From the IMG/VR virus record IMGVR_UViG_2671180422_000003, positions 1 to 13,716 of that record: a stretch of 13,716 nt of DNA. One strand, given 5' to 3'. Position numbers: made by a program. Origin of the DNA: a virus. Lineage: Duplodnaviria > Heunggongvirae > Uroviricota > Caudoviricetes. The stretch's first letter is position 1; each line of letters starts with the position of its first letter. Below are positions 1-6,000 of the stretch, piece by piece.

Positions 1-3000
1 TTTCGTGTTCATCACACCTGAAGCGACTTCACTGAGAACTGCGCCGATTTTGGTTTCAAATACGCCGCCGTCCAGCTCCCCGATAAATGCCTGCACATCA
101 GTACTGCGTTCGCTAGCCATTTTGCTGCTCCTCATCATATCGACCCTGCAAGGTCGGTTGGTTTCTCCACAAAACAGAGAAGAACACCTGCGGTGGCAGC
201 CGCCCGGATGGATTGGGTTATGAGCCCGTCGTCCGGTGATGCTCTTCTCTGTTTTGTAAAAAGAGCGGTACCAGCCGGAAGCAAGTGTACAAACTGGTAC
301 CGCCAAAGCAGTGGCTGTTGTGGTGACCGGTGCTGATCTCCGGCTTGCGGTTATTTCAGACTCTCACGGGCGTTTAATTGCCCCGCCGAACAGCTCTTTT
401 CCGCATTAGCTGCAATGTCTTTCGCGCATCAGCCTGCGCATTCACCACAACGCTGAGAGCACTTAGCCAGTTACGGCACCACACTTTGTCGCGGCTCCAT
501 AAATGCCCTCATCGTTGCACCCTGGTCTCTTCCCAGGCGTCAAACCGGATCGCCACGCTGGTTAGGCGTCTTATCAGCATCATCATTGACTTGCACATTC
601 CGGCTACCTGGTTTGTTTGCCCGAGCAAGGAGTGGATTGTCCCCTTTAACGTCCCCAGACCGCTAACGACGCATGTGCCATACGCCGTGTTACAACCAAA
701 TTTTGTTTAATCTTGCCTGTGACATGTTTCTTTTAGATACATTATGTATCTCAAGGGTACATTGTCAAGTATAAAAAAACCTGCCGAAGCAGGTTATAAA
801 TATTGATTAGGCCTTTATTTTGTATCTTCTTGGTTTTCCTGAGAAAATTACTGTGCCAATTATAGAGCAATTACCGTTGATCTTAATGTAAGGTTCAGGC
901 CAGTTTGGGTTTAATGCTTTGAGGTAACGCTGTGTTCCATCTTCTATCAACCGCTTAAAGGTGGTTTCGCCTGTATCGTGCATCAATGCAATAACGTCGT
1001 CACCGTGGCAGGCAGGGACTTCAGGATCTACAAAAATCATGTCTCCCGGGCGGTACTCATCAATCATTGAATCACCAATCACCCGCAAGATATAAGTCAT
1101 TTCGCCACAGGGTACAGGGCAGGGATAAGTTTCTGCTGTGCTCAAATCAACCTCAGAATAGCCAACTTCTTTCCATGCTCCGGCCTGTACCCATGATATG
1201 ACAGGGACTAACGTTATTTGTTTGTTAGTAATTGAAACATCAGGTTTTTTTGTGATGTTTGTTGTCTGGTGTTCTTGATCAAGCCATCCGACAGGCAGGT
1301 CGAAACATTTTTCGATGTGCCGCGCCATGCTGTCACCGATATTTTTAGTAGCACCATCTCCCATAAACCTGCTGGTCTGGGTTGGCTCGCGATCAATCAT
1401 GGTGGCAAAGGAAGAATTCCCGCCAACACCATCTCTCAGTTTTCTGGCGTTAGACCGCCGGATGTCATGGACTGTTTTCATAACGAAATTAAAACCTTTG
1501 TACCGATAGGGTACAAGTATCTTGAAGGTTCATCTCAATCATGTAATATGTATATCGGAGGTACATATTGTATGAAAGCGTATTGGGACTCTTTAACCAA
1601 AGAACAGCAGGGCGAGTTGGCCGGAAAAGTTGGCTCAACACCAGGCTACTTACGGCTGGTTTTCAATGGTTATAAAAAAGCCAGTTTTGTGCTGGCTAAA
1701 AAACTTGAGCAATGCACGTCAGGTGCAATTACGAAATCTGACTTAAGACCGGATATCTATCCGAAAGATTAACAGAACACCTTCAATTTTTAACCACAGA
1801 ACGATGAGGCTAACCGTGGGTAAGCATCACTGGAAAGTAGAAAAACAGCCTGAGTGGTACGTGAAAGCTGTCAGAAAAACTATCGCGGCGTTGCCGGGAG
1901 GTTACGCTGAAGCTGCTGAGTGGCTGGATGTAACAGAGAACGCTTTATTCAACCGCCTTCGTGCAGATGGCGATCAGATTTTCCCGCTGGGATGGGCAAT
2001 GATTTTACAGCGCGCGGCTGGCACTCACTACATTGCGGATGCTGTCGCACAGTCTGCTGGTGGGGTGTTTGTATCGCTTCCTGAACTTGAGGAAGTAGAG
2101 AACGCCGATATAAACCAGCGCCTGCTGGAAGTCATCGAACAGATCGGGAGTTACTCAAAGCAGATTCGTTCGGCAATCGAAGATGGGGTAGTGGAGCCAC
2201 ACGAGCAGACAGCAATTAATGATGAGTTGTATCTGTCAATTTCGAAGCTCCAGGAGCATGCAGCACTGGTCTACAAAATCTTTTGCGCTCCAGAAAAGAG
2301 TGACGCCCGCGAGTGTGCAGCTCCGGGCGTCGTGGCGTTTTGTGTCTGTGGAGAAACTAACGCATGAACAGTTTAACGGCAAATAACCGTTTGTCGCAAC
2401 AGCTGGTGGTCAGCGTCGCTGAACACCTGTTGTTACGGCATGAATGCAGATTACCAAATCACCTGGCTGTAAGTAACCACAGAGAACTTTACCTGACTGT
2501 GGGGGGCGAGTTGTGCAGGAACTTAACCGCTGGTTTCGTGACGGAAGAGGGCTTTATGTCCATGTTATTCGTTGGGAGCCAGAAACACAGCGCGTTATCT
2601 ATCTTCGCAAAGACTACCCGCATGAGTGCTTTAGTCCTTTGTGGAAATTCAGGCGTGATTTTGTTGAGTGTGAAGGACCACCAGCACATTGATTCTGCCA
2701 TTCCGGGACGTTACACTGTTCAGGCACCTTATAAAGCGGGTGCCGGGATTGGCGTCCTGGAATTGATCAAGGCGATATATGACGCGCCAGCGTCTTTTTT
2801 ATCGTCCGCATTTGCTCACATCAAAGTTATGGTGGGCTGGGCGGGGGCATCGAAAGATGCGCCGGTTTCCTTGATCACCGGTTACGCCAACCCCGTTCAG
2901 TTCACCACCAGCGAAATTGGCGTTTCCGGTGGTGGAAGTATTTCACCGATCAAGGAGGCTGCCATCATGGCTACTGTCCCAGCCCTCTCTCGTCTGAATG

Positions 3001-6000
3001 ATGAAGACTTACATAAACTCAGTTATGTAACAACTGCACTACGTGCTCTGCGCAAGGTAACTCTTTCGGATCCGCAGGCGCATCAGGTTCTGGTAGAAAC
3101 CCTTCTTAACTTGCAGGCTGAACGTATTCGTCTGGCGGATAAGGCTAATTTTCATATTCACCGTCTCCTGAATATCAGCGGAGGGCATCGTCATGCTTAA
3201 TCCGTTGATCCTCAATATTTGCCGTTTGCTTCAGCGTAAAAAAACATCAATTCCTACAGTTGGGCAGTGGTACACCACACCTGCAGGGCATGTTCTACGT
3301 GTTAGCCTGGTTGAGTGCACTGCTGAAACAGTATGGTATCCGCCTGACGGCTAATCAGGCATATCACCAGATGGTGAAGCTGGGGATCGTCGAGCAGCGC
3401 GAACGATACAGCCGTACCGCGATTAACAACATCAAAAAATTCTGGTCGCTGACAGCGAAAGGCTGCATGTTCGGCAAGAACATCACCAGTCCCGCAAATC
3501 CGCGCGAGACACAGCCGCATTTCTTCGAATCCCGATTCCCTGAGCTGTTAAAGCTGCTCGATACCGTTCATTGAGGTGACCGTGAGAGCACTACTGACCC
3601 CTGAAATTGCCCCGCGTATGGGGATCGTATTGTTCAGGCCAGGTTCAGAGCTGATGCCCCTGTTTATGCAGGGGCGTGTCCTGCTGGAGCCTGAGCCGGA
3701 ACGTTATTCATCTTTCGCCAGTGGTGCCGTTCCGGCGGCATCACAACCGCTGGCGGATGATCCTGCCGTTCGGGCCGTGTTCCGCAATGAGGCAGTGATC
3801 CGTCGTGCTGGTGGCGTGGAATGTCTTGAAAGCTGGTTACTTCGTGAAAAAGGCTGCCAGTGGCCTCATTCCGACTGGCACAGCGAGAACATGACCACAA
3901 TGCGACACGCTCCGGGTGCAATCCGTCTGTGCTGGCACTGCGATAACCAGCTGCGCGATCAGTTCACGGAACGGCTGGAATCAATGGCAACGGATAACTG
4001 TGCCCGCTGGGTGTTGTCTGTTGTGCGTCGGGATCTCGGTTTTGATGACAGTCACGTTGTGACAATGCCGGAACTGTGCTGGTGGCTGATTCGTAATGAC
4101 CTGGCGGATGCCTTACCGGAAAGTGCAGCCCGTAAGGCACTGAGATTACCGAAGCCTGTTGTGCCGTCTGTCACCCGGGAAAGTGACCTTGTGCCTTCGG
4201 TTCCTGCCACCAGCATCATCCAGGATAAAGCGAAAAAGGTGCTGGCGCTGAAAGTGGATCCGGAGTCGCCGGAGTCTTTTATGTTACGCCCCAAACGTCG
4301 CCGCTGGGTTAATGAAAAGTACACGCGCTGGGTTAAGACGCAGCCGTGCGCATGTTGTGGAAAGCCAGCTGATGATCCCCACCACCTGATAGGCCACGGT
4401 CAGGGTGGAATGGGTACAAAAGCGCATGATCTCTTTGTGTTGCCTTTGTGCAGAAAGCATCACGACGAGCTGCATGCGGATACCGTGACATTTGAAGAGA
4501 AGTATGGCTCCCAGCTGGAGCTGATATTTCGTTTTATCGATCGTGCGCTGGCAATAGGCGTACTGGCGTAAGTGGAGAACGAGCATGAACCTTGAAGCCT
4601 TACCAAAATATTACTCCCCAAAATCTCCAAAACTGAGTGATGACGCACCGGCGACAGGCTCTGGTGGTTTAACAATTACGGATGTAATGGCTGCGCAGGG
4701 GATGGTGCAGTCGAAAGCACCACTGGGTTTTGCCTTATTCCTGGCAAAAGTTGGTGTTCAGGATCCTCAGTTTGCGATTGAAGGTCTGCTCAATTACGCG
4801 ATGGCACTGGATAACCCGACATTGAATAAATTGAGTGAAGAAACCCGGTTACAGATCATCCCTTACCTTGTGAATTTTGCCTTTGTTGATTATTCCAGGT
4901 CTGCGGCAAGTAAGGCTCGCTGTGAGCATTGTGCTGGTACTGGATTTCATAATGTATTGCGCGAGGTGGTGAAACACTCCAGAAGCGGGGAATCTGTTAT
5001 CAAGGAAGAGTGGGTGAAGGAACTATGTCAGCATTGTCATGGTAAGGGAGAAGTCAGCACAGCGTGCAGAGGGTGTAAGGGTAAAGGTATTGTCCTGGAT
5101 GAAAAAAGAACCCGGCTTCATGGTACGCCTGTTTATAAGATTTGTGGGCGTTGCAATGGTAACCGGTTTAGCCGTTTACCAACCACACTGGCGCGGCATC
5201 ATGTCCAGAAGCTGGTACCTGCCCTGACGGATTATCAGTGGTACAAAGGATATGCAGATATCATTGATAAACTGGTTACAAAGTGCTGGCAGGAAGAAGC
5301 ATATGCAGAGACACAATTGAGAAAAGTGACAAGATAAATGATTTTCGCCGAAGATGGCGACATGATGCTTGCATTTTTCAAAAAATATGGATAAGATTTT
5401 CCCAACGATGGGCTTTGTATGTCTACCGTTGATAAGATTTAAGAACCCGCCGCTGAGCGGGTTTTTTTGTGCCTGATGTCTCATGAAACTATGAAATGGA
5501 TTGGTACGTTAAACATTTTTTCTTATTATCTTTTAGATTTTGGAGAGATGGGTAACGTCTGTATTCCAGAAACTCGATGAATATTTAATAAATTAGTTTC
5601 ACTGATGCTTCTAGGTTATGAGTGTAATGAAAAAGGTATTAATAGCAGCGATAGGTTTTTGTTTAGTCGGTTGTGCAGGTATGAAATTACCTGAGTATTC
5701 GCAAGTTAAAGCAAGTCCGTATTATACAGATTGCCGTGCGTTTGCCATGGATGTTTATAAAAATGATGGATACAGCAAAATTGCGAAAACCACTATCCTT
5801 AGCATGGATGATGTGAAGGCTAGATATATTGTTACAGGGTGTGTAGTTGCTATGGGGAAAAACACTGTAGAGGAAATTAAAGCTGATCTCTCTGCTAAAG
5901 GGAGTTCTTTTGGGCTTATCAGTGGTGCTTGTTCTAGTGCTGCATGTCGGGTTGATGTAGAGCAGCAAATGAACGCTTATATACTTGGTAGTTATTATGC

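What the first reader, a model, noticed from the sequence alone, without database searches (positions are those of the whole stretch)
2364..3574. Early region with competing protein-like reading frames and possible frameshifts
Two places show overlapping protein-like ORFs in different frames. At 2364..2700 the long track ORF competes with a frame at 2513..2692. At 3193..3354 a Shine-Dalgarno-supported ORF overlaps the ORF ending at 3574, and joined they would give one product of about 127 aa. A strong internal AAGGAGG before ATG 2967 also suggests the 278-aa ORF may really be two genes. These could be true overlapping genes, mutational frameshifts in a decaying prophage, programmed frameshifts, or sequencing errors.
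Basis: seen in the sequence. Interest (0 to 1): 0.55.

Follow-up and report, generated by a model that had tools for sequence, protein, structure and literature searches.

The report
Two-frame phage gene plus deletion scar
In this broken-down prophage, one stretch of DNA is read in two frames: a conserved gene overlap between the family of the reported cell-division inhibitor YmfM and a small protein of unknown function, so either could cause that effect; the second "frameshift" is an ordinary deletion scar.

Summary
All three observations are in the sequence. None is a frameshift or a sequencing error.

(1) 2364-2700. The long ORF starts with a ymfM-family segment. Its homologue in E. coli K-12 e14 is the published division inhibitor YmfM. 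A DUF4222 gene (2513..2692) is nested in it in another frame. The same layout occurs in every related locus examined, from many enterobacterial genera. The non-overlapping ymfM head is under purifying selection (pN/pS 0.38). DUF4222 is strongly constrained (0.19). The ymfM frame crossing DUF4222 shows no amino-acid constraint, yet it is stop-free in 74 of 74 unique sequences; chance gives about 0.1-0.3 per sequence. This is a genuine conserved overlap. In this window the usual ymfM stop is missing, so ymfM is fused in frame to an Ash domain and a 77-aa tail (278 aa), as in the viable phage SfV.

(2) 3193-3574. A deletion with 3-bp microhomology (TGA, 3312-3314) joins codon 41 of a 78-aa gene, out of frame, to the last 86 codons of a KilA-N gene.

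(3) GGAGG-N8-ATG 2967 is conserved and lies at a module joint. It is in frame, so at most a nested start.

The filamentation clones I could check also carry most or all of DUF4222.

The parts
1816..2367 (+). ymfL (cII-like regulator). Its stop TGA (2365-2367) overlaps the ATG of the long ORF (ATGA).
   Evidence: Pfam Phage_CP76, E 5e-15. NCBIfam YmfL equivalog, 168 bits. PGAP coordinates transferred from L001.
2350..2366 (+). Start site of ymfM / the long ORF: GGAGA, 9 nt, then ATG 2364.
   Evidence: The same GGAGA...AACGC(A/G)TGAAC context occurs at the same position in 34 of 34 loci from many genera.
2364..2512 (+). YmfM-family N-terminal segment (about 50 codons) that does not overlap DUF4222.
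   Evidence: Homologous to K-12 YmfM (33% identity, E 4e-9) and to Kluyvera YmfM (44%, E 6e-18). Across the family, pN/pS is 0.38 in this frame against 1.13 and 1.33 in the other two frames. The three length classes (149, 167 and 179 nt) all preserve the frame.
2513..2692 (+). DUF4222 gene (59 aa, GTG start; the G-run at 2501-2506 serves as SD), nested in the frame two bases ahead of the long ORF's. Over the same bases, codons 50-110 of the long ORF are read in the other frame.
   Evidence: Pfam PF13973, 51 bits. pN/pS is 0.19 in the DUF4222 frame, against 1.62 in the ymfM frame and 1.67 in the third frame. The AF2 model has pLDDT 85 and is a small SH3/Tudor-like barrel. The ymfM frame is open in 74 of 74 unique sequences.
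2670..2672 (+). Position where e14-type ymfM genes have their stop (TAG/TAA). Here it is GTG, so ymfM runs on into Ash.
   Evidence: In 29 of 29 e14-type sequences, DUF4222 codon 53 is NTA followed by G or A. This makes the ymfM stop, 9 nt before the next gene's ATG. The window and L005 have TGT instead.
2712..2990 (+). Ash domain of the long ORF (aa 117-209).
   Evidence: Pfam PF10554, 66.5 bits. PGAP starts an 'ash family protein' at 2622 or 2655 in related genomes. GenBank's SfV record and thousands of NCBI contigs annotate the full 278 aa.
2952..2969 (+). Internal AAGGAGG, 8 nt, then ATG 2967 (Met202), in frame. It lies at a module joint and is a possible nested start.
   Evidence: The GGAGG-N8-ATG core is kept in both alleles although the flanking codons differ. 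Homology to the Ash-Rha versions ends just after Met202 ('MATxPxL'). L005 has GAGGA-N7-ATG at the same place.
2967..3200 (+). C-terminal 77-aa module of the long ORF, predicted helical.
   Evidence: pN/pS is 0.11, and the module is identical between the two Ash alleles. It is replaced by a Rha domain in L005, L117 and L118. It has no Pfam match.
3193..3354 (+). Truncated orf38. 41 native codons (3193-3314) are followed by 12 out-of-frame codons and a stop.
   Evidence: The full gene is 78 aa in SfV and HSP60. Window 1-3314 aligns with L001 at 99%. It matches phrog_1153.
3312..3314 (.). Deletion junction with TGA microhomology.
   Evidence: The left flank matches L001 and the right flank matches L002 (base-by-base alignment). 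The junction is absent from 5,426 complete E. coli genomes, IMG/VR, PLSDB plasmids and the loci fetched up.
3315..3574 (+). 3' remnant of a KilA-N-domain gene (last 86 of 269 codons). The KilA-N domain itself is deleted.
   Evidence: Window 3312-4562 aligns with EC130 (L002) 4594-5844 at 97.8% identity; the translated remnant reads the same as the C-terminus of its KilA-N protein. It matches phrog_129 and phrog_6486.
3576..4571 (+). Intact DUF968/HNH-like gene that follows KilA-N in related prophages.
   Evidence: Pfam DUF968, E 6e-81. Synteny in L002 and L117.

Best explanation
The region is the early-right operon of a defective SfV/e14-like lambdoid prophage. It contains three unrelated features.

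(A) A genuine, conserved out-of-frame gene overlap.
- Shown: ymfM starts at an SD-ATG that overlaps the ymfL stop. Its first ~50 codons are under purifying selection. It then runs, one base out of register, through the whole DUF4222 cistron.
- Shown: DUF4222 has its own SD and start codon, and encodes a well-folded 59-aa beta-barrel.
- Inferred: ribosomes therefore read the same ~160-180 nt in two frames, giving two products.
- Shown: within the overlap, selection acts on the DUF4222 amino acids and only on the openness of the ymfM frame.
- Shown: in e14-type phages ymfM stops 9 nt before the next gene's ATG, and an SD-like motif directly follows the stop.
- Inferred: what is selected may be ribosome transit and termination-reinitiation coupling, and/or an unconstrained C-terminal tail on YmfM.
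- Shown: in this window, as in phage SfV, that stop is absent, so the ymfM frame continues in frame into an Ash domain plus a 77-aa helical module (278 aa).
- Inferred: an internal GGAGG-N8-ATG at the joint could also yield the 77-aa module alone.

(B) 3193-3574 is a deletion scar. Illegitimate recombination at a TGA microhomology removed the rest of orf38, the replication module and the 5' two-thirds of the KilA-N gene. It left two out-of-frame stumps.

(C) No frameshifting or sequencing error is needed to explain anything in the region.
For: Architecture:
- Searches covered 33 loci from Citrobacter, Enterobacter, Kluyvera, Raoultella, Kosakonia, Phytobacter, Atlantibacter, E. coli K-12 and others.
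- All of them share the ymfM SD-ATG, and DUF4222 starts 149, 167 or 179 nt downstream, in every case two bases out of register.
- In the 31 e14-type loci, ymfM stops at about +159 (159-165), and in the 13 of these printed the next gene starts at +170 to +173.

Selection:
- The ymfM head has pN/pS 0.38, against 1.13 and 1.33 in the other frames.
- In the overlap, DUF4222 has pN/pS 0.19 with pS 0.67. The ymfM frame has 1.62, about the same as the third frame at 1.67.

Stop avoidance:
- The chance that the ymfM frame stays open is 0.03-0.18 under synonymous resampling. It averages 0.28 under within-gene codon shuffling, and the baseline in ordinary genes is 0.106.
- The frame is open in 74 of 74 unique sequences. 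The most conservative joint P, using 8 clusters below 80% nucleotide identity, is 2e-5.
- Val and Leu codons end in a purine in 0 of 97 cases where that would create a stop, against 42 of 80 cases where it would not.
- The ymfM stop is made by NTA plus G or A in 29 of 29 e14-type sequences.

Same layout in viable phages: SfV orf37 and orf38. 80 IMG/VR loci keep the 278-aa ORF intact.

DUF4222 fold.

Deletion. A second deletion in the late region makes a tape-measure/tail-fibre chimera.

Internal start.
Against: - There is no direct evidence here that either product is translated.
- The ymfM frame shows no amino-acid constraint within the overlap, so its C-terminal half may have no function as protein.
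- Sequences are phylogenetically related, so the stop-avoidance statistics are upper-bound arguments rather than exact probabilities.
- Within the SfV type itself the N-terminal segment has too few substitutions to show a coding signature: variable sites by codon position are 4/9/3.
- One distant DUF4222 lineage (L240) has stops in the overlapping frame, so the overlap is not universal in the family.
- The AF2 model of the 278-aa protein was uninformative (pLDDT 36).
- The junction at 3312-3314 is unique to this window and cannot be checked against reads.
Confidence: 0.8

Rival explanations
1. Only DUF4222 is a real gene in 2513-2692. On this view the upstream ymfM-frame ORF is not functionally translated through the overlap. 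The Ash protein starts at an internal codon (2622 or 2655, as PGAP annotates), and the long open frame is a passive by-product of the DUF4222 sequence.
For: - PGAP annotates exactly this in related genomes.
- The ymfM frame has pN/pS 1.62 in the overlap, the same as the non-coding third frame.
- Within-gene codon shuffling leaves the frame open in 28% of trials on average.
- Neither Pfam nor NCBIfam has a model for YmfM.
Against: - The SD-ATG at the ymfL stop is conserved in 34 of 34 loci.
- The 50 codons upstream of the overlap are under purifying selection only in the ymfM frame.
- All length variants preserve the frame.
- The frame is open in 74 of 74 sequences, and stop-creating Val/Leu codons are used in 0 of 97 cases.
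- The stop is positionally conserved and built from rare NTA codons.
- The candidate internal Ash starts at 2622, 2655 and 2670 lack a good SD.
- Three natural DUF4222 knock-outs keep the ymfM frame open, and no converse case was seen.
Confidence: 0.12
2. A programmed -1 ribosomal frameshift carries ribosomes from the ymfM frame into the DUF4222 frame. This would make a YmfM-N::DUF4222 fusion protein.
For: - DUF4222 is in the -1 frame relative to ymfM.
- The window has a formal slippery heptamer, G GGG GGC, at 2500-2506, inside the 12 codons of the DUF4222 frame that are open upstream of its start.
Against: - A slippery heptamer is present in only 4 of 34 loci, and its position and sequence are not conserved.
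- In several loci the DUF4222 frame is closed 0-1 codons upstream of its start.
- DUF4222 has its own start codon (ATG in 25 of 31, GTG in 4, TTG in 2) and a purine-rich SD.
- The only conserved hairpin lies upstream of the site, not downstream.
Confidence: 0.03
3. The frame conflicts are mutational frameshifts or sequencing errors in single genes. On this view, 2364-2700 and 3193-3574 were each one gene originally.
For: - The prophage is clearly decayed.
- The two ORFs at 3193-3574 would join to about 127 aa.
Against: - Site 1 has the same arrangement in the viable phages SfV, Ayreon and 2H10, and in more than 100 loci.
- At site 2 the two halves match different proteins: a 78-aa orf38 and a 269-aa KilA-N protein. 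In relatives these genes are separated by about 1 kb in EC130, and by the replication module and further genes in HSP60/SfV-type prophages. No homologue spans both halves.
Confidence: 0.02
4. The junction at 3312-3314 is an assembly chimera rather than a biological deletion.
For: The junction was found in no other sequence searched.
Against: - Both flanks are in the order and orientation seen in related prophages.
- The microhomology is only 3 bp, so no repeat is present that could mislead an assembler.
- Deletions of this kind are typical of cryptic prophages; e14's own ymfN is a comparable chimera.
- The window holds another such fusion at 9791..11821.
Confidence: 0.08

Closest known systems
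ymfM (b1148) of the E. coli K-12 cryptic prophage e14, reported as the SOS-inducible division inhibitor SfiC (Ansari et al., bioRxiv 10.1101/2020.11.19.390815)
   Same: - It sits at the same position, directly after ymfL with an ATGA overlap.
- It has the same SD context and the same 'MNSLT' start.
- It shows 33% identity over 99 aa.
- The same DUF4222 ORF is nested in the same relative frame.
   Different: - K-12 YmfM is a free-standing 112-aa protein that stops 9 nt before the next gene.
- The window copy lacks that stop and is fused to Ash plus a 77-aa module (278 aa).
- The window's N-terminal segment belongs to a divergent subtype, with a 9-residue gap and without the PQLRMIPVPG motif.
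- The K-12 annotation does not list the nested DUF4222 ORF (TTG start, 1204001..1204180).
orf37/orf38 of Shigella phage SfV (NC_003444)
   Same: 99% DNA identity over window 2200-3314. The same 278-aa ORF, the same nested DUF4222 ORF and the same orf38 start are present.
   Different: - SfV has a complete orf38 (78 aa) followed by replication genes, whereas the window is deleted from codon 41 of orf38.
- The SfV record annotates only the long ORF, not DUF4222.
Out-of-frame nested phage genes such as lambda Rz/Rz1 (from my own knowledge)
   Same: One cistron lies inside another in a different frame, and each has its own ribosome-binding site.
   Different: - In Rz/Rz1 both products are known to be functional.
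- Here only one frame (DUF4222) is constrained at the amino-acid level within the overlap. The other frame is constrained only to stay open and to stop at a fixed place.
In-frame nested starts such as lambda C/Nu3 (from my own knowledge)
   Same: An internal SD-ATG lies in the same frame as a longer ORF, at a domain boundary (ATG 2967).
   Different: No experimental evidence exists here. The support is only conservation of GGAGG-N8-ATG and the position of the module joint.

Membership tests
DUF4222 (Pfam PF13973) | Profile match above the gathering score | tested here: met
   51.1 bits against a cut-off of 27, over residues 3-52 of 59. phrog_1343 matches full length at E 1e-36.
Ash family (Pfam PF10554) | Profile match above the gathering score | tested here: met
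   66.5 bits against a cut-off of 26, over residues 117-209 of the 278-aa ORF.
YmfM (e14 b1148) family | Sequence similarity to K-12 YmfM | tested here: met
   BLASTP E 4e-9 (33% identity) to K-12 YmfM and E 6e-18 (44%) to the Kluyvera homologue. No curated profile exists.
YmfM (e14 b1148) family | Position and start context: directly after ymfL, GGAGA-N9-ATG, DUF4222 nested in the same relative frame | tested here: met
YmfM (e14 b1148) family | Free-standing protein of about 108-114 aa that ends 9 nt before the next gene | tested here: not met
   The window has GTG at 2670-2672 where e14-type genes have TAG or TAA, so the ORF continues to 3200.
YmfM (e14 b1148) family | Inhibits cell division when expressed | not testable with these tools
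   Reported only for the K-12 gene. The Burke 2013 shotgun clone also contains the whole DUF4222 ORF. The pBAD24-ymfM 'open reading frame' clone would contain all but its last few codons, but its primers were not available.
Out-of-frame overlapping (dual-coding) gene pair | Each frame has its own conserved start codon and SD | tested here: met
Out-of-frame overlapping (dual-coding) gene pair | Both frames are maintained by selection | tested here: met
   DUF4222 has pN/pS 0.19. The ymfM head has 0.38. The ymfM frame is kept open in 74 of 74 sequences and its stop position is conserved, but it shows no amino-acid constraint inside the overlap.
Out-of-frame overlapping (dual-coding) gene pair | Both products are made | not testable with these tools
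   No ribosome-profiling or proteomic paper mentioning ymfM was found.
Programmed -1 ribosomal frameshift | Conserved slippery heptamer X XXY YYZ at the frame change | tested here: not met
   Present in 4 of 34 loci, at different positions.
Programmed -1 ribosomal frameshift | The downstream frame lacks its own initiation site | tested here: not met
   A start codon (ATG, GTG or TTG) is present in 31 of 31 sequences, and a purine-rich SD in the loci inspected.
Frameshifted pseudogene (site 2) | A single homologous protein aligns across the frame change | tested here: not met
   The left part matches orf38 (78 aa) and the right part matches the C-terminus of a 269-aa KilA-N protein.
KilA-N domain protein | KilA-N domain present | tested here: not met
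   Only the last 86 codons remain, and they have no Pfam match.

The most novel reading that the evidence does not exclude
The cell-division block (SfiC phenotype) attributed to e14 YmfM may be caused wholly or partly by the nested DUF4222 beta-barrel protein. More generally, ymfM/DUF4222 would then be a conserved dual-coding cassette. In that cassette, translation of ymfM through DUF4222 would set how much DUF4222 and downstream replication protein is made.

The constructs and deletions used to define ymfM that I could check all affect DUF4222 as well. A second, AT-rich DUF4222 lineage carries a different nested ORF in the same relative frame. It has an ATG at +8 in 33 of 33 sequences and a hydrophobic head.
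Probability: 0.3. Interest if true: 0.75.

Novelty: new member of a known kind. Interest (0 to 1): 0.6.

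Why it matters
Annotation. Databases disagree on this locus. K-12 lists only ymfM. PGAP lists DUF4222 plus a shortened Ash protein. Phage records list only the long ORF. The comparative evidence says that the ymfM frame and DUF4222 are both real, so each convention omits something.

Interpretation of published work. YmfM has been reported as the long-sought SfiC division inhibitor. The clones and the knock-out used for that claim do not separate the two frames. A simple pair of frame-specific mutants would settle which product acts on Z-ring formation.

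Evolution. This is a clean example of an overlap in which one frame is constrained only to remain open and to terminate at a fixed point. That makes it useful for studying translational coupling and the origin of overprinted genes.

The second site matters only as a marker that this prophage has lost its replication module.

Tried and rejected
- AF2 model of the 278-aa ORF with a shallow alignment (9 sequences, at least 89% identical): pLDDT 36, uninformative.
- Search for the source genome or another copy of the deletion: exact-product look-up of the 53-aa chimera, exact junction string in IMG/VR and megablast against plasmids. All were negative.
- Homologue search with the 77-aa tail: only the same context came back.
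- Distant DUF4222 queries: the alignment was too divergent to scan with, and P0051 found nothing.
- RNA structure around the DUF4222 start: only a 6-bp hairpin about 30-50 nt upstream, with two covarying haplotypes. It does not sequester the SD in most loci.
- The antisense ORF 2489..2701 was considered as a third competitor. It is open in only 20 of 31 unique loci, so I treat it as incidental.
- Promoter scan of 1400-3700 found none. Terminator-like hits were within chance expectation.
- Literature: no paper links ymfM with DUF4222 or with ribosome profiling. The e14 analysis paper (PMC331406) and the supplements of the ymfM preprint are not held, so the exact ends of the pBAD-ymfM insert are unknown.

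Full report
**Context**

The window is the immunity and early-right region, plus remnants of the late region, of a lambdoid prophage of the SfV/e14 type.
- The repressor ymfK/cI lies at 807..1481 on the minus strand. The cro-like ymfT and the cII-like ymfL (1816..2367) follow on the plus strand. Then come the flagged interval, a DUF968 gene, a Q antiterminator, a DNA methylase and lysis genes.
- Window 1-3314 is 99% identical to a prophage of E. coli HSP60 and to phage SfV. Window 3312-4562 is 98% identical to a different part of a prophage in E. coli EC130.

**Checking the observations**

- The 59-aa ORF 2513..2692 lies two bases out of register with the 278-aa ORF 2364..3200.
- ORF 3193..3354 has GGAGGG 7 nt upstream and overlaps ORF 3260..3574.
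- AAGGAGG (2952-2958) precedes the in-frame ATG 2967 by 8 nt.

**Site 1 (2364-2700): a conserved two-frame region**

What the two ORFs are:
- The 59-aa ORF is a Pfam DUF4222 protein (51 bits, cut-off 27).
- The long ORF carries an Ash domain only at residues 117-209.
- The first ~110 codons of the long ORF correspond to ymfM of K-12 e14. They have the same position after ymfL, the same 'MNSLT' start and 33% identity.
- K-12 itself has a DUF4222 ORF inside ymfM in the same relative frame (TTG start, genome 1204001..1204180). It is not annotated there.
- Annotation practice differs. PGAP calls DUF4222 plus an 'ash family protein' starting at 2622 or 2655. The SfV GenBank record, and thousands of NCBI contigs, call the whole 278 aa.

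Architecture in relatives. I fetched 32 species-representative loci with DUF4222 and later about 120 more from IMG/VR.
- In all 34 loci analysed in detail (the window, K-12 e14 and the 32 genome loci), an ATG or GTG preceded by GGAGA sits at or beside the ymfL stop.
- DUF4222 starts 149, 167 or 179 nt downstream, always two bases out of register.
- DUF4222 has its own purine-rich SD and its own start codon: ATG in 25 of 31 unique sequences, GTG in 4 and TTG in 2.
- In the e14 type, the ymfM frame ends at about +159 (159-165). In the loci printed, that is 9 nt before the ATG of the next gene, a replication gene in most of them.
- The DUF4222 stop overlaps that ATG.

Selection:
- The ymfM head upstream of the overlap has pN/pS 0.38 in its own frame. 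The other two frames give 1.13 and 1.33 (194 pairs). The head is therefore coding.
- Inside the overlap, the DUF4222 frame has pN/pS 0.19 with saturated synonymous sites (pS 0.67). The ymfM frame scores 1.62, the same as the third frame at 1.67.
- The amino-acid sequence of YmfM's second half therefore follows passively from the DUF4222 sequence.

The ymfM frame nevertheless never closes:
- Given each DUF4222 protein sequence, synonymous resampling leaves the ymfM frame open with probability 0.03-0.18.
- Within-gene codon shuffling gives a mean of 0.28. Only 10.6% of 53-codon windows in ordinary genes of the same loci are open in that frame.
- The frame is open in 74 of 74 unique sequences. 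Taking one representative from each of only 8 clusters below 80% nucleotide identity, and using the most lenient null, the joint probability is 2e-5.
- The cause is visible at codon level. Val and Leu codons end in A or G in 0 of 97 cases where the next codon starts with A, which would create TAA or TGA. They do so in 42 of 80 cases where the next codon starts with C or T.
- Conversely, the e14-type ymfM stop is built from the rare codons ATA, TTA or CTA at DUF4222 residue 53, followed by G or A. This holds in 29 of 29 sequences.
- Three natural DUF4222 knock-outs (L017, L061, L194) keep the other frame open. No converse case was seen.
- These counts are not phylogenetically independent, but they all point the same way.

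Alternatives tested:
- A programmed -1 frameshift is not supported. A slippery heptamer occurs in 4 of 34 loci, at varying positions. The window's G GGG GGC is one of them and is better read as the SD. In some loci the DUF4222 frame is closed right next to its start.
- Mutational frameshift and sequencing error are excluded, because viable phages (SfV, Ayreon, 2H10) and 80 IMG/VR loci have the same layout with the 278-aa ORF intact.
- The antisense ORF 2489..2701 is open in only 20 of 31 loci and is incidental.

What is special about this window:
- At the position of the e14-type stop (2670-2672) it has GTG, so ymfM runs in frame into Ash.
- The same fusion occurs in four divergent Ash-type versions: 278, 383, 416 and 380 aa.
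- None of the candidate internal Ash starts has a convincing SD.
- I therefore infer that the 278-aa fusion protein is made.

What DUF4222 is:
- The AF2 model has pLDDT 85 and shows a five-stranded small barrel with a short helix.
- The family is small, with 80 clusters at 50% identity among 1.84 billion representatives.
- Its function remains unknown.

How it probably works:
- Shown: there are two conserved initiation sites, two reading frames, a fixed ymfM termination point 9 nt before the next ATG, and an SD-like TAGAGG, TAAAGG or TAACGG at the stop.
- Inferred: ribosomes coupled from ymfL translate ymfM across DUF4222 and terminate where they can reinitiate on the next gene. Other ribosomes initiate independently on DUF4222.
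- I cannot tell whether the selected property is this coupling or an unconstrained tail on YmfM.

**Link to published work**

YmfM was reported as the e14 SOS-inducible division inhibitor SfiC. The evidence was a pBAD24 clone of the ymfM open reading frame and a ymfM deletion.
- The original shotgun clone spanned ymfL codons 142-185, all of ymfM and ymfN codons 1-92. That clone therefore contains the whole DUF4222 ORF.
- If the pBAD24 insert ends at the ymfM stop, it would contain all but the last seven DUF4222 codons. The primers were not available to check this.
- No frame-specific control is described.
- I found no paper connecting ymfM with DUF4222 or with an overlapping ORF.
- Which product causes filamentation is therefore open.

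**Site 2 (3193-3574): a deletion scar**

- Base-by-base alignment puts the junction at a 3-bp microhomology. The orf38 side reads CCTGGTTGA|ccgtg, the KilA-N side reads cactGA|GTGCACTG, and the window reads CCTGGTTGAGTGCACTG (3312-3314).
- orf38 is 78 aa in SfV and HSP60. Here 41 native codons are followed by 12 out-of-frame codons.
- The ORF ending at 3574 consists of 18 out-of-frame codons followed by the last 86 of 269 codons of a KilA-N protein. The KilA-N domain itself is gone.
That would be a chimera of two unrelated genes, not a repaired gene.
- Relative to HSP60/SfV-type prophages, the rest of orf38, the replication gene, perC, dam, a LexA-like gene and rusA are missing.
- The junction occurs nowhere else that I searched.
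- A second chimera (9791..11821: tape-measure N-terminus plus tail-fibre domains) shows that the element is a remnant, like e14 itself.

**Site 3 (ATG 2967)**

- The ATG is in frame and no stop precedes it, so these are not two separate ORFs.
- GGAGG-N8-ATG is kept in both alleles (AAGGAGG and TCGGAGG) although the neighbouring codons differ.
- Homology to the Ash-Rha versions ends just after Met202 ('MATxPxL'). L005 has GAGGA-N7-ATG at the same place.
- The 77-aa tail is under strong purifying selection (pN/pS 0.11). The Ash part differs between the two alleles by clustered replacements (pN/pS 1.9).
- A nested in-frame start at a module joint is plausible but unproven.

**Verdict**

- Site 1 is a real, conserved dual-coding region. 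It is a new instance of a known kind of arrangement, with a concrete consequence for a published gene function.
- Site 2 is ordinary prophage decay.
- Site 3 is a possible nested start.

Noticed in passing
window 9791..11821: A 676-aa ORF combines a tape-measure N-terminal domain (TMP_2) with Collar and tail-fibre-repeat domains. This looks like a second large deletion that fused two late genes, so the prophage is a remnant.
   Followed up: partly
window 2477-2502 (CCACAG ... CTGTGG): A 6-bp hairpin with a 14-nt loop lies inside the ymfM head and is conserved in all 16 aligned loci. An alternative haplotype, CTACCA/TGGTAG, keeps the pairing in 36 of 73 unique loci. That amounts to only one or two independent covariation events, and the function is unknown.
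   Followed up: partly
window 2763-2953 (Ash domain): Two alleles among 59 unique IMG/VR and window sequences differ by clustered non-synonymous patches (pN/pS 1.9), while the flanking modules are identical. This suggests a specificity-determining region.
   Followed up: partly
L119-L157 (IMG/VR, GC about 40-43%): A distant DUF4222 lineage has no ymfM head. It does have an ATG at +8, in the same relative frame as ymfM, in 33 of 33 unique sequences. This opens a ~55-aa nested ORF with a hydrophobic N-terminus (MKIQIILIGCIWISAVFVFVSYV...) that ends about 8 nt before the next gene. One subgroup has a stop at +106.
   Followed up: partly
L017, L061, L194: DUF4222 is interrupted by a stop (codon 7 or Trp21) while the overlapping ymfM/long-ORF frame remains open. 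No sequence showed the converse.
   Followed up: partly
L004 5002..5181 (E. coli K-12 MG1655 1204001..1204180): The K-12 reference annotation lists ymfM but not the DUF4222 ORF nested in it. That ORF has a TTG start with AAGGAG 9 nt upstream, encodes 59 aa, and ends 20 nt past the ymfM stop, inside the start of ymfN/oweE.
   Followed up: yes
L240 (IMG/VR): A DUF4222 member of the P0063 type has stops at +1 and +82 in the frame that ymfM would use. The overlap is therefore widespread in the family but not universal.
   Followed up: no
window 3193..3314 and L001 3494..3730: orf38 and DUF4222 both hit phrog_1153 (E 2e-16 and 0.008). The two small genes may be distant paralogues. The full-length orf38 has no Pfam match.
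   Followed up: no
L117 (E. coli Res13 prophage): In this relative, a 416-aa YmfM-Ash-Rha ORF is followed directly by KilA-N, DUF968 and Q, with no replication module. The KilA-N/DUF968/Q block is thus a recurrent neighbour of this region.
   Followed up: no
window 2781-2794: A terminator-like hairpin (GACGC GCCA GCGTC followed by T6) lies inside the Ash coding region. The number of such hits is within chance expectation for the region.
   Followed up: no
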